From positions 627-64,626 of the forward strand of contig JACRPW010000044.1 of the NCBI GenBank assembly GCA_016223005.1: DNA of 64,000 nucleotides, given 5' to 3'. Below, piece by piece: positions 1 to 59,897 of the stretch. A program made the translations under genes and the position numbers. Below the pieces are notes generated by a model that was given only the letters and a program-made list of their open reading frames with translations, was not told the DNA's origin and did no database searches. Origin of the DNA: Deltaproteobacteria bacterium. GTDB taxonomy: Bacteria > Desulfobacterota > GWC2-55-46 > UBA9637 > GWC2-42-11. Each line of letters opens with the position of its first letter. Within the stretch, counting starts at the first letter, position 1.

Positions 1-1310
1 GCCCTTTTCCTGATTTAGTACTTCAAACAAGCCCGACAACTCCACAGCATCATTGATTTTGAATTGCTCTTCGCGTTTTTTATTGTATGATGCAATAGTT
101 TCACATACTTCCTTTAAATTTTTGTCTTTGCTCAACAAGCCATTTTGTATTCGGTCTTTTATATCGTGCCAGTTGGCAAAATACTTATCGGAAACTCTAT
201 CTACGGCAGCTTTCGACCAATAAATGTCGTCCCACTCTTCGGTTTGTTTCAGCCAGTCAATGAACCTGTAAATGGTTTGTACATCCTCCTTTGTTTATAC
301 AGCGTCTTGAAAGGCAGAAGTTTTCTGAAATCCTTTTCAACCCTTCGTGCCTGATTGTACAGGTTAATAAGTAAGTTATAATGCCCGATAATCCGATTGT
401 ATTCCTCTATTCCCGATTGCGACAAACACTCTGAAAATCTGGCAATTTCAAACATCTTCTCCTCAATGGGAGATGCTTCTATCATTTTATTTGTTTCGGC
501 ATCCTTTATATGTGTTGTTCTGTTGGCATCTTTCAAATATTGGTAGGCATTCAGGTACTCGTCTTTTCGTGAAAAAGTTACTTTCGCATTATCCTGTGAT
601 TTCTTCTTTTTCTTTTGAACTTTCCCCTCCAAAAACTGAATGCAGTTATCACAAAACTTGGGTAAGTTATCGTGTATAATCCGCGTAGCAACAGCAGTCG
701 CTTTTTCTTCTTTTTTATAGTAATTTTCCCTGTTTTGGTTGTAACCGGAGAAATAGGTGAAGAATTTTTCAAATGTTTTTAAGTGCGTTTCTAATTCCTT
801 TCTCTCGTTCTCATCATCTGTTAACTTCCTAATATTGTTTTTGATATACTTCAATATTCCTGCTTCGGTCAAACATTTGACGCCCTCTTTTTTTAAAACT
901 GGTTTTCCCTTATTGTCTTCTCCCGCCTTTTCTTTTAAAGGTTGTGTTCCAACATCGAAGGTTTTAACAACGGCTTCCCGAAGCGATTTTTCTTCTGAAG
1001 TAATCGTATTTTCTTTTTCCTTCTTCAGTTTGTATTTCTCAAAATATTTAGAGAAATCGATTTGTTTAGCTTCATCAGAAGTCAAGCTTCTGTTGATTAC
1101 CTGCTCGTGTATATGGTCCATAACAGGTTTCAGGGCTATGTACGCATCTTTTATTTTCCTGTCGTTTTCAAGGATATTTCCAAGCAATCTTGCCGCATCT
1201 TCTGCTGCAAGTGGTTTCCCATCTTTTCCGATAGGTTTCAGTTCAAACCTCAGCGTTTTGGAAATCTGGTATTTATTTGTAAACTTCTCAAAGATTGATT
1301 CATTTTCCAT
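1..1310 (-). CDS. cas12a: Cas12a (Cpf1) type V-A CRISPR effector, N-terminal ~435 codons only. The gene continues beyond the window start. There is an apparent -1 frameshift in an A-run near 294 (the listed ORF 249..1310 stops at 249 while a second frame continues open to position 1).
   Basis: The N-terminus MENESIFEKFTNKYQISKTLRFELKPIGKD matches the conserved Cas12a start (xEKFTNxYxLSKTLRFxxIPxGKT). FEKFFTYFSGYNQNRENYYKKEEKATAVATRIIHDNLPKF matches the Cas12a REC1 block (FxxFTTYFxGFxxNRxNxFSxExxSTxIxxRxIxxNLPKF). LYNQARRVEKDFRKLLPFKTLYKQ matches LYNQKxKxKLPKFKPLYKQ. The downstream frame reads FIDWLKQTEEWDDIYWSKAAVDRVSDKYF, consistent with continuation of Cas12a. An AAGGAGG ribosome-binding site lies 9 nt upstream of the ATG at 1310. 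Confidence 0.85.
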
Positions 1311-1373
1311 AGATTGTGTCCTCCTTATAAATGCGTTCTAATCAAAAATCCTCTCAAGTCGAACGAATAAATA

Positions 1374-1542
1374 AAAATAAGGGTTCATTCGTAAACCCCG
1401 CACCCCGCCCACAGGGCGGGGCCTTTTGGGTGCGGGGTAAAAAAGTTGAAATGTCAGGAAGGGGTGAGTGAAGTAGGTTGGGTTAGTTTTATCAACCCAA
1501 CCTTTGCAATAAACCATTGGATTTAGCGCTGCTCAACCCAAC
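1374..1542. repeat. Copy A of a ~170-nt structured direct repeat. It contains nested GC hairpins (ccccgcacc..ggtgcgggg enclosing cgccc-acag-ggcgg followed by cctttt) and a ggttgggtt/aacccaacc hairpin.
   Basis: About 93% identical to 2186..2355 in the same orientation. The inverted repeats were read directly from the sequence. Confidence 0.9.
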
Positions 1543-1583
1543 CTACAACCTACAAACCAAGCCAAAACGGCTGAGCTTCCCGC

Positions 1584-1853
1584 TTATATCTGCTCATCAT
1601 GTGCAGATTTTTCCTGCTTTACCCTCTCATGCAGACAAACCTTTATCAACGCCCCGCGATCAACACCGATCGCTTCACGGATTGTGTCAATGTCGTTAAC
1701 CAGTGATTCCGCAACATCCAGTGTAAGTCGCACCTTTTTCCCATGACGTATAAGCTTTGCCTTAGACATGTCAATAATGTCATGGATATCTTCACTGGAG
1801 TCAAAGCGGCGATCAAATTCAGCGCTGCTTTTAGCCGTTTTTTTCGTTTTCAT
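1584..1853 (-). CDS. brnA: BrnA-like antitoxin (ribbon-helix-helix/CopG-type), partner of the DUF497 toxin
   Basis: 89 aa with a KVRLTLDVAESLV beta-strand/helix pattern. It lies immediately downstream of BrnT and overlaps it by ~23 nt (toxin-first BrnTA organisation). Confidence 0.6.
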   Translation of the reverse strand: MKTKKTAKSSAEFDRRFDSSEDIHDIIDMSKAKLIRHGKKVRLTLDVAESLVNDIDTIREAIGVDRGALIKVCLHERVKQEKSAHDEQI

Positions 1854-2151
1854 ATAGTTCTACCTCCTTTTTGTTTGCCCGTCTGACCGAAATGATACGG
1901 ATTGCTTCATTGCGGTTGGTGTAAATTGCGATCCATATCTTCTTTTGGAGCTTGCCGATCACGATCCATATCTTCTTTTGGAGCTTGCTGATCACGATCC
2001 ATCTGTCTTCTACGGGATGTGGCGCATGGATTTCAATGCGGTTTTCATCCAGCCACAACTCTTTTGCCGTATCAAAGTCGATGCCGTGTGTAGATTTGTT
2101 TGAACTGCTCTTGTCGGAATCCCATTCAAACTTCATGGTGTTATTATACAT
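1831..2151 (-). CDS. brnT: BrnT toxin (DUF497/COG2929 RelE-like ribonuclease toxin). The likely real start is the internal MKFEWD at 2136. It contains a 33-bp in-frame tandem duplication.
   Basis: MKFEWDSDKSSSNKSTHGIDFDTAKELW...RIISVRRANKKE is the typical DUF497 signature. The duplicated 11-aa block is WIVISKLQKKI/WIVIGKLQKKI. Confidence 0.75.
   Translation of the reverse strand: MYNNTMKFEWDSDKSSSNKSTHGIDFDTAKELWLDENRIEIHAPHPVEDRWIVISKLQKKIWIVIGKLQKKIWIAIYTNRNEAIRIISVRRANKKEVELYENEKNG
1931..1996. repeat. 33-nt tandem duplication (2 full units plus a partial third) inside brnT
   Basis: atccatatcttcttttggagcttgccgatcacg is repeated with one mismatch. It is in-frame (11 codons). Confidence 0.9.
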
Positions 2152-2170
2152 ATTTTGTCCAGATTTTCAA
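2142..2170 (-). promoter_or_regulatory. Candidate sigma70 promoter for brnTA: TTGAAA-17-TATAAT, with the -10 ending 6 nt before the MKFEW ATG (leaderless or very short leader)
   Basis: On the minus strand the hexamers TTGAAA (2165-2170) and TATAAT (2142-2147) are separated by a 17-nt spacer. No SD sequence lies between the -10 and the ATG. Confidence 0.5.
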
Positions 2171-2185
2171 CATTTACTTATTATG

Positions 2186-2355
2186 AAAATAAGGGTTCAT
2201 TCGTAAACCCCGCACCCCGCCCACAGGGCGGCCTTTTGGGTGCGGGGTAAAAAAGTTGAAATGTCAGGAAGGGGTGAGTGAAGTAGGTTGGGTTGGTTTT
2301 ATCAACCCAATCTATTCTGCAATAAACCGTTGGGTTTCGCGCTGCTCAACCCAAC
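2186..2355. repeat. Copy B of the ~170-nt structured direct repeat
   Basis: Aligns with 1374..1542 with a few substitutions and a 2-nt indel. Confidence 0.9.
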
Positions 2356-2388
2356 ATATAAACTAAAATACGAAAGACGAAGAATAAG

Positions 2389-3174
2389 TTACACCCGCCA
2401 GTTATACAGGTCAAAATCCGCATCAGGGACATGCTCTGCTATATACCCCCTCTTTGGCCACCTCTCCAGAGAGATTTCGTCTTTGACTATTGTGATAAAA
2501 AATCTGATTTCATCATTCGTTTTAAGACCAAGTGCATTAAACGGCACAGCAATCTCCACAACATCCTTCACTGCTATCTCTTTAATCTCTGCTTTTTTAG
2601 TCCACTGCCCATCCCTATACTTTTCAAATATGTATGCCCATTCAATAGAGGGTCCATTTATCTGTGCCTCTACCTTAGAGTTTTCTGTGGAAAAAATGTT
2701 TATTGCAAAACCCCATCTTATATCAGAAGGCATAATCCCGCTTATGAAATCAAATCTGAAAAAGAGGCAGTCAAGATTAAAGCCGTAGTTTATGGAACTT
2801 AGTATGCTGCTAGTATCTTTTTCCATGTGCATGGCGCTTCCACCCCATCCGATATCTATCTTACCTGAAGAAAGCCACTCAAAATAATCGGTTATCTCAC
2901 CGTCAATAACAGGCATTATAAAAGATGTCGGTCTCGCAGCAGGTTCACAAACCCTTTCTTCTGAGATAATCGGAATATCAAGATTTGTCGGCGGCTCTTT
3001 ACCTATGAGCATATAAAGTTTTTTAAGATGCTTCCTGAACAGTTCATCAAATTCAATGTCATTCATTGATGAGTGTTCTTCCCCATACCACCAGAACCAG
3101 TCGCTCCCCTCCGCTGTATATATCTCCTCCCATGCCTCTTTAAGTTTTGAGATACTATCTTCACTTAATTCCAT
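2389..3174 (-). CDS. Glycoside hydrolase family 57, C-terminal portion. Probably the 3' part of a single GH57 gene separated from 3212..4501 by a frameshift.
   Basis: Its reading frame stays open upstream to 3219. The upstream ORF stops at 3212-3214, so the two frames abut within ~6 nt, which is the signature of an indel. The gene context is GH57. Confidence 0.55.
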   Translation of the reverse strand: MELSEDSISKLKEAWEEIYTAEGSDWFWWYGEEHSSMNDIEFDELFRKHLKKLYMLIGKEPPTNLDIPIISEERVCEPAARPTSFIMPVIDGEITDYFEWLSSGKIDIGWGGSAMHMEKDTSSILSSINYGFNLDCLFFRFDFISGIMPSDIRWGFAINIFSTENSKVEAQINGPSIEWAYIFEKYRDGQWTKKAEIKEIAVKDVVEIAVPFNALGLKTNDEIRFFITIVKDEISLERWPKRGYIAEHVPDADFDLYNWRV

Positions 3175-3211
3175 ACCGCCCTTTTTTAAGTTATTTTCAA
3201 ACAGAACCAGT

Positions 3212-4501
3212 TCATTCGCCTATCGTCACACACTTTATCAAATTATTACTGCTTATTTTTGAATACAGGGCATTTAAAAAATCATTCCCATCATTTTTAT
3301 AATATTCCCATGCATTTTCACCATCCAGAACTATTGTGACAAGATGACCCTCTATCTCGCTGCCAAGGGATTCCCTGATGTATAACAACCTTTCAACAAG
3401 GTCATCTGCAGCCTTTCCTGCATCCCATTTTGAATAAACAAACCCGATTAAGTCAGAAAGTATGCGGTCCCTGAAGACCATCGCAATCTCATTACCACCC
3501 TTCAGCATCTTATATGGTTTATACAATATATGCGGGTCAAGACATCTGTTGTTATCATCCCTCCTTATATGTTTGCCTAAAGACTGCTCCAGTATCCTCT
3601 CATCAGTTGCAATCCAGTTAATACCATGTCTTGCTATTAAAGATACTGCATCTTCACTTACACCCCCTTCTGGAGGCCACATACCAGCAGGCTTCTTGCC
3701 AAAGACATTTTCATGGTATCTAATGCCCTTTGCTATCTGCTCCATTGCATCTTCAGGGTGGACGAATCTTGAATTTGGCAAAACCACCCACGGCATTGCA
3801 TCTCTGGCAGAGTCAGTATCGCATAAAAGCGGCAGTATCGGATGATAGTACGGAGAGGTTGACAGTTCAATAATACCCAAGTCCTGCATTTTCCTGTATT
3901 CATGGATTATGATTTTTAAAATATCATACTGCTTTTCTATAAGCCTTGATTTTTCATCTTCTGTAAAATACTGCCCTTTTTTTTCAAGTCCTTTAAGAAA
4001 GTCATCGTCATCACGAAGTAAAGGGTCTATCCACGCAAGATTGAAAAGAACCTGCAGGTCCAGAAAGTCCTGCACAGCATAGTAGCGTATGGCTTCAGAG
4101 AAATTGCCATTGTATGAATGCAGCCCCCTTTTTTTAAGCAATTCCCAGTATCTTGGAAACGGCATTATCATATTCTCCCAGTTGGCAAAGAAAAACTTAT
4201 CTAAGAGAAATCTCTTGTCATCCAAAGTCAATATATCCGCAGGTTTTGTTGTAACATCCAGAAATCTATCCTTTGCCCTGCCTTCTGTGTAGTCTATGAG
4301 CTGCTCTAAAAGGGACGGCACAATATTGACTGTCTGGTGGATACTGGGATACCTTTCAAGTATATGCACCATATCATAATAATCCTTTGTCCCATGCAGT
4401 CTGACCCACGGCAGGGGATACCTGCCATCTACAGGGTCTTTATATAACGGCTGGTGCATATGCCAGAGAAATGCCACATGAATGGGTGAGTTGTCTTTCA
4501 T
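3212..4501 (-). CDS. Glycoside hydrolase family 57 catalytic domain (alpha-amylase / 4-alpha-glucanotransferase / branching-enzyme family), N-terminal portion
   Basis: The N-terminus VAFLWHMHQPLYKD carries the GH57 HQP motif, in a (beta/alpha)-barrel-like context. Confidence 0.7.
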   Translation of the reverse strand: MKDNSPIHVAFLWHMHQPLYKDPVDGRYPLPWVRLHGTKDYYDMVHILERYPSIHQTVNIVPSLLEQLIDYTEGRAKDRFLDVTTKPADILTLDDKRFLLDKFFFANWENMIMPFPRYWELLKKRGLHSYNGNFSEAIRYYAVQDFLDLQVLFNLAWIDPLLRDDDDFLKGLEKKGQYFTEDEKSRLIEKQYDILKIIIHEYRKMQDLGIIELSTSPYYHPILPLLCDTDSARDAMPWVVLPNSRFVHPEDAMEQIAKGIRYHENVFGKKPAGMWPPEGGVSEDAVSLIARHGINWIATDERILEQSLGKHIRRDDNNRCLDPHILYKPYKMLKGGNEIAMVFRDRILSDLIGFVYSKWDAGKAADDLVERLLYIRESLGSEIEGHLVTIVLDGENAWEYYKNDGNDFLNALYSKISSNNLIKCVTIGE

Positions 4502-4507
4502 GATCTA

Positions 4508-4996
4508 TCAATCTCTCATATTTACAAACTGCAGATTTATCTCCATATCCTTTGCCTTTAACATCTGGATAACTGCCTGAAGGTCATCCCTTTTCTTTCC
4601 TGTTACCCTTACCTGTTCATCCTGAATCTGCGGCTGAACCTTTATGTCACCGTCTTTTATAATCTTAACGATTTCCTTTGCCTTTTCAGTTGGTATGCCC
4701 TGTCTGATTTTTATCACCTGTCTCTTTAAACCGCCTGATGCATCTTCAATCTTTCCATATTCCAGTGCCTTTAAAGAAACACCCCTTTTCACCATCTTCC
4801 CTTGCAGAACATCTATAACTGCCATCAGTTTATAGTCATCGTCACCTATAACTATTATCTCCCCTTTCTTCTCCCACCTTATCTCACTCTTTGAACCTTT
4901 AAAATCATACCTCTGGCTGATTTCCTTTACAGCCTGATGAACCGCATTGTCAACCTCCTGTGTGTCTACCTTTGAAACAATATCAAAAGACGGCAT
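4508..4996 (-). CDS. yajQ: YajQ family nucleotide-binding protein (UPF0234)
   Basis: [19 protein letters not shown]... is the conserved YajQ N-terminus. Length is 162 aa. Confidence 0.85.
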
Positions 4997-5087: not shown

Positions 5088-6479
5088 CTATCTCACATCT
5101 CCTCCAACAACTATCTCTGGTATGCGCAGTGTTGGCTGGGCATCTGAAACAGGCACACCCTGAGCATCCTTACCGCATGTGCCAATACCAAAACCTAAAT
5201 CACTGCCCACCATATCAATATCTTTCAGAACCTTTGGGCCATTCCCTGCTAATGTGGCGCCTCTCACAGGCTCTGATATTTTACCATTTTCTATGAGATA
5301 CCCCTCTGTAACCTCAAACACAAAATCACCATTTACCGTATTAACCTGCCCCCCTCCCATCTTTTTTACCAGAAGCCCCTTTTCAAGAGATGCGATTATC
5401 TCCTGCGGGCCTGTTTTACCCGGTGCAATCAGGGTATTTGTCATCCTTGGTATCGGTCTATGAAGGTAAGATTCCCGTCTGCCGTTGCCTGTAGACCTTT
5501 TCCCATCCTTCATTGCAGTAAGTCTATCATACATATAACCTTTAAGAATACCATTTTCAACAAGCACAGTCTTCTGCCCCTTTGTGCCCTCATCATCAAA
5601 AAAGAATGAACCCCGTTTATTTGGGATTGTCGCATCATCTATTACAGTTATAAGAGGGGATGCAACCTGTTCGCCAATCTTATTTGAATAGACTGAAAGG
5701 CACTGCTGTGATAAATCAGCCTCCAGTCCATGTCCTATTGCCTCATGAATCATTGTGCCGCCTGCACTGCTTGATAATATTACAGGCATCTTGCCGCCAG
5801 TCGCCATTCTTGAATTTAACAAGATAATTGCCCTTCGTGCCGCTGTTTCGGCAATCTGTTCAGGCGGCATATCTTCTAATATCTCTATACCCATGCAGCC
5901 GCCAACAGGTTCATAACCTGTTTGAAGGACATCACCCTCCACAGCAACAACATTCACAAAAAAGAGTATGCTTGTTTTATCTTCCTCTGCCCATGCACCT
6001 TCACTATTTATAACAGCCATCCTTCTTGCTCCATCACCATATACAACCTTAACCTGTTGGACCCTTTTATCTGTCCGCCTCGCTGCCATGTTTGCCCTGT
6101 TTACAATCTCAACCTTCTCTAAAAGGGGGATACTATGAGGAGGTATCTTTATAAAAAACCCTGCTGAAATATTTTTATGAGTGAGTGCAATATCCCTTTC
6201 TGTCTCTCCTTTTTTAACTGCCTGATTTACAGTTTCAGCAAGGGTAATCAGCCCTTTCTGTGAAATGTCATTTGTATATCCGTATGCGGTTTTATAATCA
6301 AATATAACCCTTATTCCGCAGCCGACATCCCTGCCAGATATAACCTTTTCAATCCTGTCTTCTTCGCAGACAATTGATGTATTTACAGTCTCTTCAAAGT
6401 ATATATCAGCAAAGTCTCCGCCTTTTTTGAGTGCAGTTTTCAGGATTTCAAACGGGTCAATACCCTTAATCAGTTCCAT
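5088..6479 (-). CDS. tldD: TldD/PmbA family metalloprotease. The listed ORF extends to 6581 but the likely start is MELIKGIDPF at 6479.
   Basis: HEAIGHGLEADL metal-binding motif. The N-terminal extension in the 6581 start has no homology and overlaps thiE. Confidence 0.85.
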   Translation of the reverse strand: MELIKGIDPFEILKTALKKGGDFADIYFEETVNTSIVCEEDRIEKVISGRDVGCGIRVIFDYKTAYGYTNDISQKGLITLAETVNQAVKKGETERDIALTHKNISAGFFIKIPPHSIPLLEKVEIVNRANMAARRTDKRVQQVKVVYGDGARRMAVINSEGAWAEEDKTSILFFVNVVAVEGDVLQTGYEPVGGCMGIEILEDMPPEQIAETAARRAIILLNSRMATGGKMPVILSSSAGGTMIHEAIGHGLEADLSQQCLSVYSNKIGEQVASPLITVIDDATIPNKRGSFFFDDEGTKGQKTVLVENGILKGYMYDRLTAMKDGKRSTGNGRRESYLHRPIPRMTNTLIAPGKTGPQEIIASLEKGLLVKKMGGGQVNTVNGDFVFEVTEGYLIENGKISEPVRGATLAGNGPKVLKDIDMVGSDLGFGIGTCGKDAQGVPVSDAQPTLRIPEIVVGGDVR

Positions 6480-7151: not shown

Positions 7152-7897
7152 GCACGGTATTAACCATAGCAGGTTCTGACCCATCAGGCGGGGCAGGTAT
7201 CCAGAGAGATTTAAGGGTATTCTCGGATTTTAAGTGCAATGGTCTTTCTGCAATAACCGCCCTCACTGCGCAAAATTCAAAAAAGGTAAATGCAGTTTTT
7301 CCTATTCCTGCCCGATTTGTCAAAAGACAGATTGGTGTACTTGTTGAAGAATATAAAATAGACGGCTTGAAGACAGGCATGCTTGCAGCAGAGGGGATAG
7401 TTAAGGTTGTTGTTGGATTTTTAAAAAGAAGGCAGCAGAAAAACATTGTTGTTGACCCTGTATTTGTCTCAACAAGCGGTTATCCGCTCCTTGAAAAAAA
7501 AGGGGTTGCAAGATTGAAAAGCGAACTAATCCCTCTTGCAGACATTGTTACGCCAAATCTCTTTGAGGCGCATATACTTTCTGGGATAAAAATTAATGGC
7601 ATTGATGAAATGCATTCTGCGGCAGAGAGGATTAAAAGACTTGGTTGTAAGGCTGTGCTTGTTAAGGGAGGACACCTCCATAAAATTTCAAATTCCAAAT
7701 CCCAAATTTCAAATGATGTGCTATATGATGGCGAGGAATTTAAATTGTTTAAAACAAGAAGGGTTCAAAAAGACTTGCACGGCACAGGGTGCATTCTGTC
7801 AGCAGGCATTGCAGCAGGGCTTGCAAATGGGCTGGATATGCAGTCTGCGATTAAAAAAGCAAAAAGGCATGTTACAAGGATGCTAATTCAAATATAG
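7148..7897 (+). CDS. thiD: Hydroxymethylpyrimidine/phosphomethylpyrimidine kinase. It contains a translated heptamer-repeat insertion (KISNSKSQISND).
   Basis: LTIAGSDPSGGAGIQRDL... and a C-terminal GTGCxLSAAIAA motif. The repeat ttcaaat/tccaaat/cccaaat/ttcaaat lies at 7687-7714. Confidence 0.9.
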   Translation: MSTVLTIAGSDPSGGAGIQRDLRVFSDFKCNGLSAITALTAQNSKKVNAVFPIPARFVKRQIGVLVEEYKIDGLKTGMLAAEGIVKVVVGFLKRRQQKNIVVDPVFVSTSGYPLLEKKGVARLKSELIPLADIVTPNLFEAHILSGIKINGIDEMHSAAERIKRLGCKAVLVKGGHLHKISNSKSQISNDVLYDGEEFKLFKTRRVQKDLHGTGCILSAGIAAGLANGLDMQSAIKKAKRHVTRMLIQI

Positions 7898-7918
7898 TAA
7901 GTAGTTACCGCTTACTGT

Positions 7919-8368
7919 TTACTGCTCACCGCTTACCGCTTTTGTGATTTCTATCTGTCTTGAATTCTCGCCTGTATAATAAAATTTTATAAGAATATAT
8001 TCTGGCGGTAAAAGAGGCAATCCCTTTTCTGCCCACTCAACAACTGTTACTACATCTGTATAAAAAAAATCCTCTATGCCTGCTTCGGTCAGTTCACTAA
8101 CACTGCCTAGCCTGTAAATGTCAATATGATATAAAGGCATCCTCCCCTTATATTCATTTACTATTGTAAAAGACGGGCTTTTGACAAGTTCATTTACACC
8201 AAGCCCTTTGGCAAGCCCTTGAACAAATGTTGTCTTGCCAGAGCCAAGGTCTCCGATAAGGGCAATAACATCACCTGCTTTAAGTTTAGCGCCAATCTTT
8301 TTGCCAAGTTTCCTTGTTTCTTCTTGAGAGTTTGTGTTAAAGATTTCTAGTTTCACGATATATCTCAA
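7919..8368 (-). CDS. tsaE: tRNA threonylcarbamoyladenosine biosynthesis ATPase TsaE (YjeE)
   Basis: Walker A GDLGSGKTTF and typical length. The C-terminus overlaps a ttaccgc-type short repeat. Confidence 0.8.
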   Translation of the reverse strand: MRYIVKLEIFNTNSQEETRKLGKKIGAKLKAGDVIALIGDLGSGKTTFVQGLAKGLGVNELVKSPSFTIVNEYKGRMPLYHIDIYRLGSVSELTEAGIEDFFYTDVVTVVEWAEKGLPLLPPEYILIKFYYTGENSRQIEITKAVSGEQ

Positions 8369-12591: not shown

Positions 12592-12677
12592 CTCCTTTTT
12601 ACTCGCTTTGCGAGAATTGTAAAATGGAAATTGTAAATTTTAAAATTCCCAATCTTCAATTTGCAATTTTCAATTAT

Positions 12678-14760: not shown

Positions 14761-15735
14761 TTAACCTTTATTCCTTACAGCCAAAAGCATCCTCTCAATA
14801 AGTTCTGTAAAATCTATGCCTGCACACCTTGCTGCCTTTGGCAGTAAACTCAGTTCTGTTAGACCAGGGACTGTGTTAAGTTCAAGAACATAGGGGTCAT
14901 TTTTTTTGTCAAGGCATACATCAACCCTTGCTGCGCCGCAGCACCCAAGGGCATTGTATGCATTAATGGCAGCCTCTTTTACCCTGCATTCAACCCCTTT
15001 CTCCAATGGTGCAGGCGCGATGTAATCTGTCATCCCTTTTGTATATTTTGACCTATAGTCATATAAACCTTTTTTGGGTTTTATCTCTACTACAGGCAAA
15101 GGTTCTCCGCTTAATATCCCTACAGTAACCTCCCTGCCCTGAATAAACCTTTCCAGGACAATCTTGTTATCAAACCTGAAGGCTTTTTTAATTGCCTTTT
15201 GCAAATCCTTTTTATCCTTTACAACAGTAAGCCCTATTGTTGAACCCTGCCTTGCAGGTTTTACTACAAGAGGAAATTTGTAATTTGTAGTTCGTAATTC
15301 GTAATTCTTAATTCCTAATTCGTAATTTCTTATAACCTGCCAATCAGGTGTTGGTATACCATGAAACCTAAAAATCTCCTTTGCTGCTGCCTTGTCAAAT
15401 GCCACTCCACTTGCAAGCACACCTGACCCTGTATATGGTATCCCCATTATCTCAAGGAGCCCCTGTATTGTGCCGTCTTCTCCATATTTGCCGTGTAGGG
15501 CGATAAATGCAAGTTTAATCTTCTTTTTCTCAATTACCTTTGCTGTATCCCTGCCTGCATCCACTGCAACCACTTTATAACCTTTACCCTTAAGCGCCTT
15601 ATATACAGCCATGCCTGAGCAGAGGGATACCTCCCTTTCAGATGACATCCCGCCCATCAAAACCCCTATTTTAAGTTTTTTTAAATTAGTAATTCGTAAT
15701 TCGTAATTCGTAATTTTTTTACTCCTCTCCGACAA
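14761..15735 (-). CDS. ddl: D-alanine--D-alanine ligase. It has a TTG start with a GAGGAGG SD. Heptamer-repeat peptides sit at the N-terminus (ITNYELRITN) and internally (NYELGIKNYELRTTNYKF).
   Basis: ATP-grasp Ddl motifs (KIGVLMGGMSSEREVSL, GSGVLASGVAFDK). The aattcgt-type repeats lie at 15684-15718 and 15275-15330. Confidence 0.92.
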   Translation of the reverse strand: MSERSKKITNYELRITNLKKLKIGVLMGGMSSEREVSLCSGMAVYKALKGKGYKVVAVDAGRDTAKVIEKKKIKLAFIALHGKYGEDGTIQGLLEIMGIPYTGSGVLASGVAFDKAAAKEIFRFHGIPTPDWQVIRNYELGIKNYELRTTNYKFPLVVKPARQGSTIGLTVVKDKKDLQKAIKKAFRFDNKIVLERFIQGREVTVGILSGEPLPVVEIKPKKGLYDYRSKYTKGMTDYIAPAPLEKGVECRVKEAAINAYNALGCCGAARVDVCLDKKNDPYVLELNTVPGLTELSLLPKAARCAGIDFTELIERMLLAVRNKG

Positions 15736-18069: not shown

Positions 18070-19139
18070 GCATCCCTCTATAAATATCTTCTACAATAAT
18101 ACTAGCCGCATCAGGCATTCCCAATTGGTGTGCCCTTTCCTCAATCTCTTTTATCTTTACTAAATTTTCATAAAGTGAAGTCAATGCATGGGCAAGTTTT
18201 GCCCCATCCAGTTCTTCCTGTTTGAACATGACAGCAGCGCCTCTGTCTGCAAGATACCTTGCATTAACCTCCTGATGGTTGTCCGCAGCAAATGGATACG
18301 GGATAAGGATCGATGCCTTGCCAAGCGCCGTAATCTCTGCAATACTTGTTGCACCGCTCCTACAGATAATCAAGTCTGCCATTTTGTATGCATCTGCCAT
18401 ATCGTCAATAAAATTAAACACATTAGTTTTGAGTTTTGAGTTTATTGTATGTTTCTTTCACCCTCTCATAATCCTCTTCACCTGTCTGGTGGATGATATT
18501 TATTGAGCAATGTTTAAGATATTCCAGCGACTCAAGAAATATTGAGTTTATTGCCTTTGCACCTTGACTGCCTCCAAAAACCAGAATGGTGAATCCTTCG
18601 CCTTTCGCCTTTCGCCTTTCGCCTTTCGCCTTTAGTATTTCCTTCCTCACAGGATTTCCTGAAACTACCACCTTGCCCTTTGGAAAATATTTTTTTGCAT
18701 CAGGAAATGCAACAAATACCCTGTCAACAAACCTCCCAAGGTATCTGTTCGTAATGCCCGGCAGGGTATTTTGTTCAAGGATTATTGTCATAACCTTCAT
18801 AATCTTTGCAGCCGCTACAACTGGAAAGGCACTATACCCGCCTGCACCTACTACAAGGTCAGGCATATATCTTCTAATCAACTTTATAGATTTAAAAATC
18901 CCCATAAGTGCCTTTAAAATGGAAATCGCCCTATTTAATAATCCCTTTCCTTTCACACCTCCAACATCTAATGTCTCAAGATGGAAACCATATTTGTAGA
19001 GTATCTTTGCCTCCAGACCCTTCTTGCTCCCTATAAATGTAATCTCATTTCCAGAATCCCTTTCCTTAAAGATTTCTGCCAGTGCAATCGCTGGAAATAA
19101 ATGTCCTCCGGTTCCGCCTCCAGTTAGTATAATTTTCAA
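18062..19139 (-). CDS. murG: MurG glycosyltransferase. It is encoded as two ORFs in different frames (18423..19139 for the N-domain, 18062..18421 for the C-domain), joined at a 3-unit aaactca heptamer tract. Deleting one 7-nt unit restores a single frame.
   Basis: The N-ORF has GGGTGGHLFPAIALA. The C-ORF has FIDDMADAYKMADLIICRSGA, the conserved MurG C-terminal motif. The frames abut at 18424-18444. Confidence 0.85.
18424..18444. repeat. Heptamer tandem repeat (minus-strand aaactca x3) at the murG frame junction
   Basis: The + strand reads tagtttt gagtttt gagttta. Confidence 0.9.
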
Positions 19140-20245: not shown

Positions 20246-21663
20246 AGCGCCTCTACCAATTTTTTAAAGACATCCCCTCTCTCCTCATAACTCTTAAACA
20301 TATCAAAACTTGAACATGCAGGGGAAAGGAGGACTATGTCTCCGCTTTTTGCTGTATTGTGTGCCTTTTTAACAGCATCTTCCATTGACAAGGCGAATAC
20401 AGTCTCTGTGCAGGCACCCAGCGCCTTTTTCATCTTCTGTCTTGCCTCTCCTATAAGTATCAAGAGTTTGACCTTTTCCTTTATCAAATCTTTAAGCACA
20501 CTGTAGTCGCCGCCTTTGTCCTTACCACCTGCTATTAGGACAATTGGCGCATTAAACCCCTCCAGACACTTCTGCAAGGCGCCGATATTTGTGCCTTTTG
20601 AATCATCGTAATAGGAAACACCGTTGATCTCTCTTGCAAACTCTACCCTGTGCGGCAGGGCATCAAAGGCATTTATGATTTTGATTACTTCATCATCCTT
20701 TAAACCGCACATTTTTGCTGCCGCTATTACAGCCATTATGTTTTCTATGTTATGGATACCCTTAAGTTTGAAACCGACAGTTGGATATATTTCTTTTGCG
20801 CCATCAAGAGAATAAACAATCCTGTTATCCTTATAATAAACCCCCTCTTCCAGAACATGGGTGCTGCTGAAAGGGATGATACGGATTTGAGATTTGAGAT
20901 TTGAGATTTGAGATTTTATAACCGGGTCATCTATATTCACAACCGCAATATCCCCTTGCCCCTGATTTTTGAATATATTAAATTTTGCATCCGCATATTC
21001 CTTAAAATTTGCGTATCTGTCCAGATGGTCCTCGGTAATGTTCAGAAGTATAGAAATATACGGCTTAAACCGTCTTATGCCCTCCAGTTGAAAACTGCTT
21101 ACCTCTGCTACCACATAATCAGACCTTTCTTTTCCCATGGCATAGTCAATCAGAGGAGTACCAATATTGCCGCCCACAAAGACATCTCTGCCTGCATCAC
21201 TCAAAACCCTGCCCAGCAGTGCTGTGGTTGTAGTTTTGCCATTTGTTCCTGTAACAGCAATAATAGGGGTGTCTATAAAATTATATGCCAGTTCAATCTC
21301 GCTTATAACCTCAATACCTTTCTTTCTTGCCCCCTGTATAGGTTCTATACTTGACGGCACACCCGGGCTTAAGATTATAAGGTCTGCCTCTGTAAAAATA
21401 TCTGCCGGGTGTTTACCTGCTGCAACCTTTACCCCTTCCATGTCATCTGAATAAGGCAGGTCTTCTATTGGTTTTAAGTCTGTTACAGTAACAACTGCCC
21501 CCTTTTCCTTCAGGAACCTTATGGTAGAAAGTCCTGTAGATGCAAGACCGACAACAAGGACATGCTTGCCTTTCAGGTCAAACTGATTAATGCGAGAAAC
21601 GATGTAACGCGGGAAACGATGTAAGGTTTCCTGCCTTTCCTGCCTTTCCCGCCTTTCTCGCAT
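20242..21663 (-). CDS. murD: UDP-N-acetylmuramoylalanine--D-glutamate ligase. The ATG 21663 start with a GAGGTG SD gives a repeat-encoded N-terminal extension (MRERRERQERQETLHRF). There is an internal KSQISNLKSQI heptamer insertion.
   Basis: Mur ligase blocks (GTNGKTTTTAL). The gatttga x4 repeat lies at 20884-20911. Confidence 0.92.
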   Translation of the reverse strand: MRERRERQERQETLHRFPRYIVSRINQFDLKGKHVLVVGLASTGLSTIRFLKEKGAVVTVTDLKPIEDLPYSDDMEGVKVAAGKHPADIFTEADLIILSPGVPSSIEPIQGARKKGIEVISEIELAYNFIDTPIIAVTGTNGKTTTTALLGRVLSDAGRDVFVGGNIGTPLIDYAMGKERSDYVVAEVSSFQLEGIRRFKPYISILLNITEDHLDRYANFKEYADAKFNIFKNQGQGDIAVVNIDDPVIKSQISNLKSQIRIIPFSSTHVLEEGVYYKDNRIVYSLDGAKEIYPTVGFKLKGIHNIENIMAVIAAAKMCGLKDDEVIKIINAFDALPHRVEFAREINGVSYYDDSKGTNIGALQKCLEGFNAPIVLIAGGKDKGGDYSVLKDLIKEKVKLLILIGEARQKMKKALGACTETVFALSMEDAVKKAHNTAKSGDIVLLSPACSSFDMFKSYEERGDVFKKLVEAL

Positions 21664-22821: not shown

Positions 22822-24039
22822 TCACTTTACAATGTCGTATTGTAACCTTTCAATTATCTCTTCCATGCCGACTGCCCTTGAACCTTTCACAAGCAGGATG
22901 TCTCCATTTTTCAAAATCTTTTCTAAGGCATTAACAACCTCTGATTTATTGTTAAGCGTTTGAACACATTTTTTATCCATTCCTGCCTTAATCGCGCCGT
23001 CTGCAATATCTTTTTTGAATTCACCCACAACAAATAAAAGGTCTAATCCTAATCCGCCTGCAACTTTGCCTATATATCTGTGCCTTTCTTTTGATGCATC
23101 CCCAAGTTCCAGCATATCACCCAGCACAGCGATTTTTCTGCCTTTCATCTCCGAAAGGCTTCTTAAGGATGCCTCAACAGATGCAGGATTTGCATTGTAT
23201 GTGTCATCTATGACTGTAATATCATTTTCAAGTTTAATCGGCCCCATCCTTCCATACAGGGGTTTATAGTTTTTAAGCCCATCAATAATATTTTGCTTCT
23301 TTGCGCCAATGGCAAGGCTTGCCGCAATTGCAGCAGCGGCATTTGAAAGATTATGAACGCCGTATCCATTTATATTTACCTCTGTATTGTCTCCATTCAC
23401 ATTAAATACTGCGGACATGCCGCCGTTATTCTTTGAATATTCTTTAAGAAAAACATCGGCATTAGATTTAATGCTGAATGTAATCTTTTTTTGCTTTATA
23501 GATTCTGCTATTTTTACAATCCACGGGTCATCCATATTTATTACAACAACACCATCCTCTCTGAGCCCCGAAAATATTTCACCTTTAGCAGATGCAACAC
23601 CATCAATATCTCCGAGTGTCTTCAGATGTGCTGAACCAATATTAGTCAGAAGGGCAATATCAGGCTTGCAGATACTTGTAAGTTTTGTCATCTCACCCTT
23701 TTCGCTTATACCAAGTTCTACAACTGCAATATCGTGTATGTTGTTCATCTTAAGCAGTGTAAGGGGCAGACCTATCAGGTTGTTCAGATTACCCTCTGTC
23801 TTCAGGACACAATGGGATTGCCTGAGTATTGAGGCTATCATCTCCTTTGTTGTTGTCTTGCCGCAACTGCCGCTGACTGCAATCAAGGGCACAGGGTGTC
23901 TCTCCCGCCAGTATCGTGCAAGATTGCCGAGAGCGGAAATTCCGTTAATGGCATCTATGATTTCTTTTGCTGTCAGTTCAAACATACAAACATTAGTGTC
24001 AGTGATTAGTGTCAGTGTCAGTAAAATCTTGCCTCTCAC
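22822..24039 (-). CDS. murF: UDP-MurNAc-tripeptide--D-alanyl-D-alanine ligase. The likely start is MFELTAKE near 23988.
   Basis: Mur ligase with a GSCGKTTTKEM P-loop. Confidence 0.9.
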   Translation of the reverse strand: MRGKILLTLTLITDTNVCMFELTAKEIIDAINGISALGNLARYWRERHPVPLIAVSGSCGKTTTKEMIASILRQSHCVLKTEGNLNNLIGLPLTLLKMNNIHDIAVVELGISEKGEMTKLTSICKPDIALLTNIGSAHLKTLGDIDGVASAKGEIFSGLREDGVVVINMDDPWIVKIAESIKQKKITFSIKSNADVFLKEYSKNNGGMSAVFNVNGDNTEVNINGYGVHNLSNAAAAIAASLAIGAKKQNIIDGLKNYKPLYGRMGPIKLENDITVIDDTYNANPASVEASLRSLSEMKGRKIAVLGDMLELGDASKERHRYIGKVAGGLGLDLLFVVGEFKKDIADGAIKAGMDKKCVQTLNNKSEVVNALEKILKNGDILLVKGSRAVGMEEIIERLQYDIVK

Positions 24040-49624: not shown

Positions 49625-50356
49625 ATGGATAAATCCCAAGAGGAAATTCAGAAACCAAAAAACTGGTTTGAGAGTCTGGACTGTGCTATAGAGGGTGCTA
49701 TCTTCGCTGTAAAGACTGAACGGCACATGAGGTATCACTATGTAATTGCTGCTGTTATCCTGCTGACAAGTCTTCTGCTGAATCTGACAACAACTGAATT
49801 TCTCATATTTGCCCTTTCCATAGTGCTGCTCTTATTTGCTGAGATGTTTAATACTGCAATAGAGCATCTGGGTAACATCATTTGGGAGAAACATCACATC
49901 TTCATAAAACAGGCAAAGGATATAGCAGCAGGTGCAGTTCTAATATCTTCTATTGGAGTTTTCCTTACATCTTATGTAATATTTTCAAAATATCTGTACC
50001 GTCCTGCTGAACTATTTCTAATAGGGGTAAAGACATTGTCAGGTCATATAGCAATTATATCACTGCTTTTCGTTTTTATTGCTGTTGTCTTCTCAAAGGC
50101 ATATTTACATAAAGGAAGACCGCTTCACGGGGGTATGCCAAGCGGTCATTCTGCAGTTGCATTTTCTCTGTGGGTATCAATATCGCTTATTACAGTAAAC
50201 CCTTTGGTGACAATTTTATCATTCGTTATGGCTGTCATGGTCAGCCAAAGCAGGCTCATTGGCCGCATCCATACTTTCTTTGAAGTATTTATGGGCGCTC
50301 TGCTGGGAGCAGGTCTCACATTTCTAATCTTTTACCTTTTTTCAAATACCCTCTGA
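49625..50356 (+). CDS. Fusion protein: prokaryotic diacylglycerol kinase (DgkA) N-domain plus a PAP2-family phosphatase C-domain
   Basis: The N-terminal half has the DgkA-like AIEGAIFAVKTERHMRYH...EMFNTAIEHL. The C-terminal half has PAP2 motifs KGRPLHGGMPSGHS...SRLIGRIHT. Confidence 0.7.
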   Translation: MDKSQEEIQKPKNWFESLDCAIEGAIFAVKTERHMRYHYVIAAVILLTSLLLNLTTTEFLIFALSIVLLLFAEMFNTAIEHLGNIIWEKHHIFIKQAKDIAAGAVLISSIGVFLTSYVIFSKYLYRPAELFLIGVKTLSGHIAIISLLFVFIAVVFSKAYLHKGRPLHGGMPSGHSAVAFSLWVSISLITVNPLVTILSFVMAVMVSQSRLIGRIHTFFEVFMGALLGAGLTFLIFYLFSNTL

Positions 50357-52026
50357 TGTCAAATAAATCAATAATAGCATCTGTTATATCAGGCACTATT
50401 ATGATATTTGCATTCCCGCCTTTTGATATATGGGTTATAGGTTGGTTTGGCATGGCGCCTTTATTCTTTGCCATTTATGATAAAAAGCCGTTGCAGGCAT
50501 TTGCACTGGGCTTTATCTGGGGCATTGTTTTTTTTCTCGGCACTGTTTACTGGGTTGTAAACTCAATGGTAAATTACGGTGGTGTGCCTGTATGGGCAAG
50601 TGTGCTGGCGCTTCTGCTTCTTGTAATTGTCTTAAGCCTTTACCCTGCTGTATTCGCTTATTTTACCTTTAGCCGTGAAAAGCATGCTTTTCACCCTTCA
50701 GCCTTTCGCCTGATTTTTATCCCTTTCCTCTGGGTCAGTCTTGAATTTGTGCGGACATATCTTTTTACAGGCTTTCCTTGGGTCTTACTTGGTTATTCAC
50801 AAACAGCATTCCTCCCAATAATGCAGATTGCTGATATAACAGGTGTCTATGGTGTATCGTTTTTGATAATCATGGTCAATGTTTTTCTATTCAATTGCGG
50901 ACTGCAGATTGCAGATTGCGGATTTAAAATTAAAATTTCTAAAATGGAATGGATTATAGTATTTTCGGTTTTAATCCTTGTCTTTGGTTATGGTCATTTA
51001 AGGATTGGACAGATTGATAATTTAACTAAAAACTGGAGGCAGATTAAGATAGGTATTGCCCAGGGCAATATAGATCAGGCGCAGAAATGGGACCCTGCAC
51101 ATCAGGAAGGAACGATAGATATTTACAGGCAGATTAGTATAGACATTGCACAAAATGAAAAGGACATTGACCTTATTATATGGCCAGAAACAGCCACACC
51201 ATTTTATCTTCAGTCTGATGAAAAATTCGGTCCGCTTATCTTTGATATAGCAAAAACTCTGGCAGTAAACCTTATTACAGGAAGTCCTGCGCATGAGTAT
51301 ACATCTGATGGTAAAACTATAAATTACTATAACAGCGTGTTTCTGATTTCAAAGCAGGGAGGCATTGTCAATAGATACGATAAAGTCCATCTCGTGCCTT
51401 TCGGCGAATATGTCCCTTTTAAAAGATTTCTTCCATTTGAAAAACTTGTTGCAGGTGTCGGGGATTTCAGTTCAGGAAAAAACTTCAAGCCCCTTGCATT
51501 AAATAATGATGATACATTTGGCATCCTCATATGTTTTGAGGCAATATTTCCTGACATAGCAAGGCAGCTTTTGAAAAATGGCGCAGACTTTTTAATCACA
51601 GTAACAAATGATGCATGGTTTGGAAGGTCATCTGCACCATATCAGCACCTATCCCAATCATTAGTGCGGGCTGTTGAAGGCAGGACATTTTTAATCCGCT
51701 CTGCCAATACAGGTATAAGCGCAGTGATTGACCCTGTTGGAAGGATAAAGGTTAAAAGCGGACTGTTTACAAGAGAAGGTTTAGTAGATACAATATCATT
51801 AAAAGAAAGGTCTTTCACAACATTTTATACCCGATATGGCGATGTGTTTGCCATTGGATGCATATTCATCTCAATAGTTATATTTATTACTAATGCAAGA
51901 AAAAGGGGGCAGACTTGCCTATTGACATTTGCCCTCTTTATCTTCTCTATCACCTTTTTTACCTCTGCCGTCCCCTTTTCTTATTTTTCTTATTGGTCCC
52001 CTTTTCTTGTTTTCTTATTATCCTAA
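50356..52026 (+). CDS. lnt: Apolipoprotein N-acyltransferase (CN-hydrolase). It carries an in-frame mini-palindrome insertion (FSREKHAFHPSAFRL) and a heptamer-repeat insertion (GLQIADCGFKIKI).
   Basis: Multi-TM N-terminal domain plus CN-hydrolase with E...K...C (ILICFEAIFPD). The repeats lie at 50666-50710 and 50894-50935. Confidence 0.88.
   Translation: MSNKSIIASVISGTIMIFAFPPFDIWVIGWFGMAPLFFAIYDKKPLQAFALGFIWGIVFFLGTVYWVVNSMVNYGGVPVWASVLALLLLVIVLSLYPAVFAYFTFSREKHAFHPSAFRLIFIPFLWVSLEFVRTYLFTGFPWVLLGYSQTAFLPIMQIADITGVYGVSFLIIMVNVFLFNCGLQIADCGFKIKISKMEWIIVFSVLILVFGYGHLRIGQIDNLTKNWRQIKIGIAQGNIDQAQKWDPAHQEGTIDIYRQISIDIAQNEKDIDLIIWPETATPFYLQSDEKFGPLIFDIAKTLAVNLITGSPAHEYTSDGKTINYYNSVFLISKQGGIVNRYDKVHLVPFGEYVPFKRFLPFEKLVAGVGDFSSGKNFKPLALNNDDTFGILICFEAIFPDIARQLLKNGADFLITVTNDAWFGRSSAPYQHLSQSLVRAVEGRTFLIRSANTGISAVIDPVGRIKVKSGLFTREGLVDTISLKERSFTTFYTRYGDVFAIGCIFISIVIFITNARKRGQTCLLTFALFIFSITFFTSAVPFSYFSYWSPFLVFLLS
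50666..50710. repeat. Second copy of the gtgaaaagcatgcttttcac mini-palindrome element, inside lnt and translated in-frame
   Basis: Same palindrome with cctttagcc / ccttcagcctttcgcc flanks. Confidence 0.9.
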
Positions 52027-56456: not shown

Positions 56457-56511
56457 TAATAACCACAAGATTATTTCAAATCTTAAATCTTAAATTTGAA
56501 ATTACAAAATT

Positions 56512-59764: not shown

Positions 59765-59897
59765 ACGACATTCTGCGAATGTCGAATTGTAAATTGAAGA
59801 TTGAAAATTGGGAATTTGAAAATGTTTATAAAATTTAAAATCTAATATTTACAATTTTCATTTTACAATTTGAGCGAAGCGAACAAAGGGAGGGCTG

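What the first reader, a model, noticed from the sequence alone, without database searches (positions are those of the whole stretch)
249..300. Apparent -1 frameshift in cas12a at an A-run
The listed ORF stops at 249. A second frame that is open from ~294 down to position 1 continues with Cas12a-like sequence (FIDWLKQTEEWDDIYWSKAAV...). The two frames overlap only between 249 and 294. One extra A in the AAA tract (minus strand ...TATAAACAAAGG...) would fuse them as ...LYKTKEDVQTIYRFIDW. This is either a decaying effector or a homopolymer indel error. The window also has frame breaks in an essential gene (murG) and in the GH57 gene, which argues for the error explanation.
Basis: seen in the sequence. 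Interest (0 to 1): 0.55.

Follow-up and report, generated by a model that had tools for sequence, protein, structure and literature searches.

The report
cas12a broken by missing 163 bases
The reading-frame break in this CRISPR cas12a gene comes from 163 bases (54 codons plus one) that every relative has and this assembly lacks, not from a one-base slip in an A-run; it is most likely a local assembly fault or else an ordinary recent gene-killing deletion.

Summary
The minus-strand ORF 1310..249 is the Cas12a N-terminus, and a -1 frame open from 294 to 1 continues as Cas12a. The cause is different. DNA alignment with the two closest relatives shows exactly 163 nt missing between window bases 293 and 292. 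That is 54 conserved codons at the REC1/REC2 boundary plus one base. All 46 homologues covering the site keep this segment, so adding an A would fuse the frames but not give an intact gene. The assembly reads 122 homopolymers of 6 nt or more inside long open frames, and no break sits at one. The contig has two more lesions of the same class. GH57 lacks 134 nt, and essential murF lacks its whole N-terminal domain (about 231 nt). murG is shifted at a 7-nt repeat. Lesions in essential genes point to a common assembly (scaffold-join) artefact (about 0.55). A genuine recent deletion is the main rival (about 0.38). Nearby relatives carry decayed cas12a genes, and the gene shows no further damage. 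Read mapping would decide. Interest is low.

The parts
249..1310 (-). cas12a 5' reading frame (353 aa: WED-I and REC1), ending in 13 out-of-frame codons and TGA at 251-249
   Evidence: TIGR04330 E=6.5e-44, PF18501 E=4.8e-31. 100% identical to MBI5682531.1. 83-85% aa identity to relatives over 336 codons.
288..296 (-). Junction of the missing 163-nt segment (AAAC|AAAGG, between bases 293 and 292, +/-2 nt). Relatives have 54 codons here (IGCGEKK...KYFEKTYGE).
   Evidence: DNA alignment with L001 and L002 shows one 163-column gap. Protein alignment with 7 relatives. Coordinates.
1..294 (-). cas12a continuation in the -1 frame (REC2 region, 98 codons). It runs off the window and, per MBI5682530.1, stays open to the contig end.
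   Evidence: The downstream piece P0058 is 81% identical and gap-free over 215 aa to P0003. dN/dS is 0.13 versus relatives.
1320..1326 (-). Shine-Dalgarno-like AAGGAGG, 9 nt upstream of the cas12a ATG
   Evidence: Sequence read directly (coordinates).
1584..2151 (-). BrnT toxin (2151..1831) and BrnA antitoxin (1853..1584) immediately upstream of cas12a. BrnT carries a 33-nt tandem duplication at 1929-2002.
   Evidence: PF04365 E=1.6e-23. NF047399 65 bits, above the cut-off of 60. TRF. Translation shows IVISKLQKKIW / IVIGKLQKKIW.
3207..3220 (-). Same class of lesion in the GH57 gene: 134 nt missing (GGCGAAT|GAACTGG). This removes about 44 aa including [22 protein letters not shown] and shifts the frame.
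   Evidence: It is the only sizeable gap in a 2.1-kb alignment with L018 (79% nt identity).
23932..23949 (-). Same class of lesion in essential murF: about 231 nt (77 aa) missing, in frame. This removes the whole N-terminal Mur ligase domain.
   Evidence: PF01225 is present in relative L017 and absent in the window protein, and the middle domain starts at residue 36 instead of 113.
18421..18440 (-). murG frame break at a heptanucleotide array (CTCAAAA CTCAAAA). Removing one unit restores ...NKLKTNVFNFIDDM...

Best explanation
**Shown.** The two cas12a frames are separated by the absence of a 163-nt stretch (54 codons + 1 nt) at the REC1/REC2 boundary, not by a one-base slip. All relatives have this stretch. 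As written, the sequence encodes a 353-aa fragment without REC2, PI, RuvC or Nuc.

**Inferred.** The missing stretch is most likely a local assembly fault of this short-read MAG contig. Two contig pieces would have been joined with the sequence between them dropped. The organism would then carry an ordinary, intact type V-A cas12a.

**Reasoning.**
- The same contig lacks 134 nt inside GH57 and about 231 nt inside murF.
- It also has a copy-number fault in a 7-nt repeat inside murG.
- murF and murG are essential, so these lesions were not filtered by selection.
- Apart from the one gap, each affected gene is pristine.
For: **The gap and its conservation**
- There is a 163-nt gap against L001 and L002, with at most 1-2 nt of microhomology.
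- The segment is present in 10 of 10 related loci and 46 of 46 homologues.

**No other damage to the gene**
- There is no further damage on either side of the gap.
- dN/dS is 0.13-0.22 both upstream and downstream.
- The downstream frame is open for 98 codons in the window.
- P0058 then continues it, 81% identical and gap-free to P0003.

**Same-class lesions on the contig**
- GH57 is missing 134 nt with no microhomology.
- murF is missing its N-terminal domain.
- murG is shifted at a heptamer array.
- BrnT carries a 33-nt tandem duplication.
- Two of the four gene-breaking lesions (cas12a, GH57, murF, murG) hit essential dcw genes, while the other shared orthologues aligned lack no conserved segment of 40 aa or more.

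**Assembly context**
- Two of the gaps lie in the last 3.3 kb of the window, and the contig breaks off inside cas12a about 0.6 kb beyond the window start.
- The missing pieces are nowhere else in the window.
- Homopolymers are clean: 122 runs of 6 nt or more lie inside long open frames. That fits Illumina data with structural rather than base-level errors.

**Unverified lead on provenance**
- The locus-tag and accession series suggests BioProject PRJNA640378.
- That project used 150-bp paired reads, MEGAHIT contigs and IDBA-UD scaffolding (PMC7906910).
- Its ~40% GC Deltaproteobacteria bins have only 6-7x coverage.
Against: - No reads could be examined, so the artefact is inferred, not shown.
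- De Bruijn-graph contigs normally need read support for every junction. The artefact therefore requires a scaffolding or gap-closing step that leaves no N run, and the window has no N.
- My recollection that IDBA-UD trims contigs at negative estimated gaps is from memory and was not tested.
- The provenance of the MAG is not verified.
- cas12a and GH57 are dispensable genes, where real deletions are tolerated.
- Decayed cas12a genes are common among the nearest relatives. L014/L015 carry a CAA>TAA nonsense codon in two separate runs, L016 is 3'-truncated, and L001 is shifted in an A7 run.
- My rough estimate of the odds is only about 3:2 in favour of artefact.
Confidence: 0.55

Rival explanations
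1. The deletion is genuine and recent. A 163-bp out-of-frame deletion with little or no microhomology inactivated cas12a in the sampled population, or in a strain variant the assembler followed. The locus is then a young pseudogene in an accessory island (BrnTA plus cas12a) next to GH57.
For: - Loss of cas12a function is frequent in the closest clade.
  - L014/L015 have a CAA>TAA nonsense codon reproduced in two SRA runs, and only one CRISPR repeat is left after cas2.
  - In L016, cas12a homology stops after about 480 aa.
  - L001 is shifted in an A7 run.
- Graph assemblers need reads across a junction.
- cas12a and GH57 are dispensable.
- Relative L018 has a ROK kinase gene after GH57 where the window has BrnTA plus cas12a, so this is variable accessory DNA.
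Against: - There is no second lesion and no relaxed selection on either side of the gap.
- The same kind of gap removes the N-terminal domain of essential murF, and murG is also broken. That cannot be tolerated biology.
- The lesion rate estimated from essential genes alone already accounts for the lesions seen in the non-essential genes.
- No independent assembly carries the same junction. The 353-aa product forms a cluster of one.
Confidence: 0.38
2. One reading: the gene is intact in the organism, and a single A was lost from the AAA tract by a homopolymer sequencing or assembly error.
For: One inserted base does fuse the two frames. A real example of this lesion type exists in relative L001, where a 7-A run is one base short.
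Against: - The length difference from relatives is 163 nt, not 1 nt.
- The fused product would lack 54 residues conserved in 46 of 46 homologues.
- The tract is only 3 nt long.
- 122 homopolymers of 6 nt or more, including 15 of 8 nt or more, are read through in frame elsewhere in the window.
Confidence: 0.02
3. The break is functional: either a programmed -1 ribosomal frameshift, or a naturally split or shortened Cas12a made from the two frames.
For: The downstream frame is intact and conserved. An SD-like AAGGAGG lies at the junction.
Against: - There is no X XXY YYZ slippery heptamer in the 249-294 overlap (read directly).
- No relative has a frame change here.
- The product would lack a universally conserved segment.
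- The downstream frame has no start codon with a ribosome-binding site. Its first ATG/GTG/TTG is a TTG about 50 codons in.
Confidence: 0.02

Closest known systems
Type V-A CRISPR effector Cas12a/Cpf1 (NCBIfam TIGR04330; solved example Lb2Cas12a, PDB 8h9d)
   Same: - The N-terminal WED-I/REC1 region matches TIGR04330 and PF18501.
- The LYKQI region aligns to Lb2Cas12a residues 208-280 (E=4.8e-10).
- Full-length relatives score 535-544 bits against a cut-off of 300 and have RuvC and Nuc domains.
- Relatives have cas4-cas1-cas2 and 36-nt repeats ending AATTTCTACTATTGTAGAT.
   Different: - The window copy lacks 54 codons right after the end of the Pfam REC1 domain (residue 337 in P0003) and is out of frame.
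- Only about 440 codons lie in the window, and the contig ends inside the gene.
- No array or adaptation genes are visible.
- The subclade has LYKQIGCG where classical Cas12a has LYKQILSD.
Intact orthologues on Lake Tanganyika metagenome contigs (L003, L004, L007; 1358 aa) and Logan contig L001
   Same: 83-85% amino-acid identity over the first 336 codons. About 81% over the REC2/WED part carried by P0058. Same gene start and motifs.
   Different: They contain the 163 nt that the window lacks. They are followed by cas4-cas1-cas2 and a CRISPR array where the contig is long enough.
Naturally decayed cas12a loci in the same clade (L014/L015, L016, L001)
   Same: An otherwise conserved cas12a is disrupted by a single lesion.
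   Different: The lesions are of other types: a nonsense codon, a 3' truncation, and a 1-nt shift in an A7 run. None shares the 163-nt gap.
Local join errors in scaffolded short-read metagenome assemblies (established knowledge, not a database family)
   Same: - Segments of 134-231 nt are missing without microhomology.
- Short tandem duplications of 7 and 33 nt are present.
- Essential genes are hit as readily as dispensable ones.
- Lesions cluster near a contig end.
- Base-level accuracy is otherwise clean.
   Different: There is no N run at the joins and no read-level evidence was available. The assembler and coverage for this MAG are not verified (searches are only a lead).

Membership tests
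Type V-A Cas12a (Cpf1) effector gene | Sequence homology of the N-terminal WED/REC1 region to the curated Cas12a models | tested here: met
   TIGR04330 E=6.5e-44 (profile 1-294 of 1288). PF18501 E=4.8e-31, 109 bits against a cut-off of 37.4.
Type V-A Cas12a (Cpf1) effector gene | Whole-protein score above the TIGR04330 equivalog cut-off (300 bits) | tested here: not met
   The 353-aa product scores 150 bits, because only a quarter of the protein is encoded. Full-length relatives L003 and L009 score 535 and 544 bits.
Type V-A Cas12a (Cpf1) effector gene | Single uninterrupted ORF containing the conserved REC1-REC2 connecting segment | tested here: not met
   163 nt are missing and the frame is shifted. 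Spacing is 22 aa against 51-80 aa in 46 homologues.
Type V-A Cas12a (Cpf1) effector gene | C-terminal RuvC and Nuc nuclease domains | not testable with these tools
   This part lies beyond the window, and the public contig ends inside the gene (MBI5682530.1 is partial). Relatives have PF18516 and PF18510.
Type V-A CRISPR-Cas locus | Adjacent cas4-cas1-cas2 and a CRISPR array whose repeats end in the AAUUUCUACU-NNN-GUAGAU handle | not testable with these tools
   The downstream side is outside the contig. Nothing of the kind is in the window: 0 matches with up to 3 mismatches and no array by TRF. Relatives have both.
Homopolymer indel (sequencing error) | Length difference of 1-2 nt from relatives, located in a run of several identical bases | tested here: not met
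   The difference is 163 nt and the tract is AAA. 122 runs of 6 nt or more are in frame elsewhere.
Programmed -1 ribosomal frameshift | Slippery X XXY YYZ heptamer in the overlap, and conservation of the two-frame arrangement in relatives | tested here: not met
   There is no such heptamer between 249 and 294 (read directly). All relatives are in one frame across the site.
Genuine pseudogene | Disrupted ORF together with independent signs of decay (further lesions, relaxed selection) or the same lesion in an independent assembly | tested here: inconclusive
   Disruption is met. There are no further lesions, and dN/dS is 0.13-0.22 on both sides. No second assembly of this allele exists in the collections.
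Local assembly (scaffold-join) artefact | Junction unsupported by reads, with the missing sequence present in the read set | not testable with these tools
   Reads were not available. The support is indirect: same-class gaps in essential murF and in GH57, and a murG repeat fault.

The most novel reading that the evidence does not exclude
The 163-bp deletion is genuine and the locus is still used. One possibility is that the 353-aa WED/REC1 fragment acts as a crRNA-binding decoy or regulator. Another is that it combines with a separately translated C-terminal piece as a natural split Cas12a with a shortened REC lobe.
Probability: 0.02. Interest if true: 0.55.

Novelty: not a real feature. Interest (0 to 1): 0.1.

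Why it matters
The value is mainly as a correction.
- **For this gene.** Taken at face value, the site could be filed as a programmed frameshift, a decaying CRISPR effector, or a trivially repairable homopolymer error. Anyone mining this MAG for a Cas12a should not repair it by adding an A, because the result would lack 54 conserved residues.
- **For this MAG.** Its frame breaks are mostly dropped segments, including in essential murF. Pseudogene counts or metabolic calls made from it would be unreliable.
- **If the deletion is real.** It would be one more example of the frequent loss of cas12a seen in this clade, which is unremarkable.

Tried and rejected
- **Source contig.** Exact look-ups of the two annotated products gave nothing. 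Scans of genome and metagenome collections returned only relatives, not the source MAG or a second assembly of it. The junction could therefore not be checked independently.
- **One-base repair in either AAA tract.** Rejected, because the difference from relatives is 163 nt.
- **Repeat-mediated collapse.** The flanks share at most 1-2 nt (cas12a) or 0 nt (GH57) of microhomology in the relatives' sequence. A partial resemblance inside the deleted stretch of L001 (CAAAGGAGAATACAAAC) does not sit at the left breakpoint.
- **Misplaced segments.** None of the three missing segments is elsewhere in the window. The only hit is the paralogous MurE N-domain.
- **Relaxed selection test.** dN/dS and lineage-specific changes show no difference between the window and its relatives, or between upstream and downstream. 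This is uninformative on real versus artefact, except that the lesion is young.
- **Chimeric contig.** GC is a uniform 39-43% across the window, including cas12a.
- **More frame breaks.** Three back-to-back same-frame ORF pairs (53866/54862, 58559/59177, 60194/61397) were suspected. They are separate genes with complete domains.
- **Provenance.** The supplement of PMC7906910 lists JACQ/JACR accessions and low-coverage bins of about 40% GC, but not this locus tag. It remains a lead only.

Full report
**1. The observation**

The minus-strand ORF 1310..249 encodes 353 aa. Its ATG is preceded by AAGGAGG at 1326-1320, and it ends at TGA 251-249. It is the N-terminus of Cas12a. TIGR04330 gives E=6.5e-44 over profile positions 1-294 of 1288. 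PF18501 (REC1) gives E=4.8e-31.

The frame one base back is closed by TAA at 297-295. It is then open from 294 to base 1 (98 codons: KEDVQTIYRFIDWLKQTEEWDDIYWSKAAV...). The third frame is full of stops. The second frame gives only a weak REC2 hit (PF21918, E=0.003). It aligns well with the same region of relatives.

The public record annotates the same split. MBI5682531.1 has 353 aa. MBI5682530.1 has 253 aa, is partial, and runs off the end of a 65,087-nt contig of a 'Deltaproteobacteria bacterium' MAG.

**2. What the break really is**

The closest homologues all carry 41-55 extra residues between FKTLYKQ and EDVQTI (IGCGEKKTLFHELKYDTKEQQQ...AGKKYFEKTYGE). They are 83-85% identical over the first 336 codons.

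At the DNA level, the window aligned with L001 and L002 has a single gap of exactly 163 columns. It lies between ...CTGTATAAAC and AAAGGAGGATG..., that is between window bases 293 and 292. 163 nt is 54 codons plus 1 nt, which is why the frame changes.

- Ten related loci have the segment. Eight of them carry full-length single-frame cas12a genes of 1328-1434 aa.
- In 46 homologous proteins covering the site, the distance from LYKQ to the IYWSK-type anchor is 51-80 aa (median 76). That set includes classical LYKQILSD-type Cas12a. In the window it is 22 aa.
- In P0003 the Pfam REC1 domain ends at residue 337, which is LYKQI. The window's second frame starts matching the REC2 model only at profile position 37. 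The lost piece is therefore the REC1/REC2 junction and the first part of REC2.

A one-base repair would give an ORF, but not an intact Cas12a.

**3. Homopolymer error and recoding are excluded**

- The tract is only AAA.
- Elsewhere in the window, 122 homopolymers of 6 nt or more lie inside stop-free stretches of at least 200 codons. Of these, 42 are 7 nt or longer and 15 are 8 nt or longer.
- The overlap 249-294 has no X XXY YYZ slippery site.
- No relative changes frame here.
- The downstream frame has no plausible start. Its first ATG/GTG/TTG is a TTG about 50 codons in, with no ribosome-binding site.

**4. State of the rest of the gene**

Apart from the gap, the gene looks healthy. dN/dS against L001 and L003 is 0.16-0.22 upstream and 0.13 downstream. 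Window-specific substitutions are no more non-synonymous than those of L001. The annotated downstream piece is 81% identical and gap-free over 215 aa to P0003. The lesion is either very young or not biological.

**5. The family**

Relatives are bona fide type V-A systems.
- TIGR04330 scores are 535 and 544 bits against a cut-off of 300.
- They have RuvC and Nuc domains and cas4-cas1-cas2.
- Their arrays have 36-nt repeats ending AATTTCTACTATTGTAGAT.

None of this can be seen for the window copy, because the contig ends inside the gene. The window holds no such repeat. Upstream of cas12a lies a BrnT/BrnA toxin-antitoxin pair.

Relative L018 shares the gene order ftsZ...TldD-GH57. It then continues with a ROK kinase gene where the window has BrnTA plus cas12a. 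The locus is therefore an accessory island.

**6. The other breaks in the window**

- **GH57.** The two ORFs match consecutive parts of one solved GH57 chain. Against the closest relative L018 (79% nt identity), the window lacks exactly 134 nt at 3214|3213. This removes about 44 aa, including the conserved [22 protein letters not shown], with no microhomology.
- **murG.** The frame is broken by a second copy of the heptamer CTCAAAA. Removing one copy restores NKLKTNVFNFIDDM.
It lacks its entire N-terminal Mur ligase domain, 77 aa or about 231 nt, in frame. PF01225 is present in relative L017 and absent here. The middle domain starts at residue 36 instead of 113.
- **BrnT.** It has a 33-nt tandem duplication with one mismatch.
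- **Controls.** The other shared orthologues aligned lack no conserved segment of 40 aa or more. Ten further genes have complete domains. The missing segments are not elsewhere in the window.

**7. Real or artefact**

*For a real deletion.*
- cas12a decay is common in the nearest clade.
  - L014/L015 carry a CAA>TAA nonsense codon reproduced in two separate runs, and have a single leftover repeat.
  - L016 is truncated after about 480 aa.
- cas12a and GH57 are dispensable.
- Graph assemblers normally need reads across each junction.

*For an artefact.*
- murF and murG are essential members of an otherwise well-conserved dcw operon. Their lesions cannot be tolerated biology.
- The murF lesion is of the same class as those in cas12a and GH57: 134-231 nt missing, little or no microhomology, and no secondary damage.
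- About two faults fall in roughly 35 kb of essential genes. That rate alone predicts the two or three lesions seen in the rest of the window.
- Two of the gaps lie in the last 3.3 kb of the window, next to where the contig breaks off inside cas12a.

*A concrete mechanism.* This is a lead, not verified. The locus-tag and accession series suggests BioProject PRJNA640378. That project used 150-bp paired reads, MEGAHIT contigs and IDBA-UD scaffolding (PMC7906910). Its ~40% GC Deltaproteobacteria bins have 6-7x coverage. At such coverage a 65-kb N-free sequence must be stitched from several contigs. From memory, that scaffolder trims contig ends when it estimates a negative gap, which would drop real sequence without leaving Ns.

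*Estimate.* I put the artefact at about 0.55 and a genuine deletion at about 0.38. Read mapping across 200-400 would settle it.

**8. Comparison and verdict**

The gene is a member of a known kind, type V-A cas12a, in a subclade marked by LYKQIGCG. The feature flagged is not a frameshift site. It is a 163-nt hole that is probably not biological and, if biological, is an ordinary young pseudogene. Interest is low.

The most unusual thing in the window is unrelated to the finding. It is a dense set of 7-nt tandem arrays read through in frame inside housekeeping genes. These are listed under things noticed in passing.

Noticed in passing
window 1539-1559, 7681-7714, 7905-7941, 12650-12677, 15273-15327, 15684-15715, 18423-18443, 18595-18635, 20884-20920, 24234-24255, 36134-36165, 38897-38930, 39219-39241, 50900-50924, 56478-56503, 59785-59823: - There are 18 heptanucleotide tandem arrays of 3 or more units in 64 kb, against 0.2 in shuffles. 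Periods 5, 6, 8 and 9 are near background.
- About ten lie inside housekeeping ORFs (thiD, ddl, murG, murD, murE and others).
- They are read through in frame as 7-aa-periodic loops such as KSQISNLKSQI and KAKGERRKAKGE.
- The murD array sits at the same place with the same unit in relative L017.
- thiD differs from L018 by exactly 21 nt, which is 3 units.
- MurG homologues at 55-65% identity show heptamer-like peptides at the same two loops.
- Heptamer elements inside genes were reported for Geobacter metallireducens (PMC2700814).
- Why a lineage keeps slippage-prone arrays in essential genes is unexplained.
   Followed up: partly
window 22822-23985 (murF), junction about 23941|23940: Essential murF is 387 aa against 465 aa in relative L017. 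It lacks the entire N-terminal Mur ligase domain (PF01225), an in-frame loss of about 231 nt. It is the strongest hint that the contig has dropped segments.
   Followed up: yes
window 3207-3220 (GH57, ORFs 4501..3212 and 3174..2389): The GH57 frame break is a 134-nt gap relative to L018. It removes the conserved [15 protein letters not shown].AWD motif and is not a small indel.
   Followed up: yes
window 18421-18440 (murG): The murG frame break is an extra copy of the heptamer CTCAAAA in one of the coding heptamer arrays. Only 1 or 4 units would be in frame. Relatives have a 9-aa heptamer-like loop there.
   Followed up: yes
window 1929-2002 (inside BrnT, 2151..1831): A 33-nt tandem duplication (2.2 copies, one mismatch) duplicates 11 residues of the toxin core: IVISKLQKKIW then IVIGKLQKKIW. 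It could be a real in-frame duplication or an unmerged contig overlap.
   Followed up: partly
L001:2545-2551; L014:1489-1491 and 5305-5340 (also L015); L016:~4070-4121: The closest cas12a relatives are often broken.
- L001 is one A short in a 7-A run.
- L014/L015 have a CAA>TAA nonsense codon in two separate SRA runs, and only a single CRISPR repeat after cas2.
- L016 loses cas12a homology after about 480 aa.
   Followed up: partly
window 1-4500 versus L018:7566-10859: Gene order ftsZ-aldH-yjeF-tsaE-thiD-thiE-tldD-GH57 is shared with relative L018. The relative then continues with a ROK kinase gene, where the window has BrnTA plus cas12a. The window also has an extra DUF520 gene (4996..4508) between tldD and GH57.
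   Followed up: partly
L002, L003, L004, L005 (record titles): Near-identical or related cas12a contigs are binned into very different phyla: Candidatus Nealsonbacteria, Planctomycetota, Weeksellaceae and Deltaproteobacteria. This suggests mis-binning of short contigs and/or horizontal spread of this Cas12a subclade.
   Followed up: no
window 51970-52019: A 26-nt tandem duplication (2.0 copies, 92% match) lies just before the stop of ORF 50356..52026. It is not a multiple of three, so it may alter the C-terminus.
   Followed up: no
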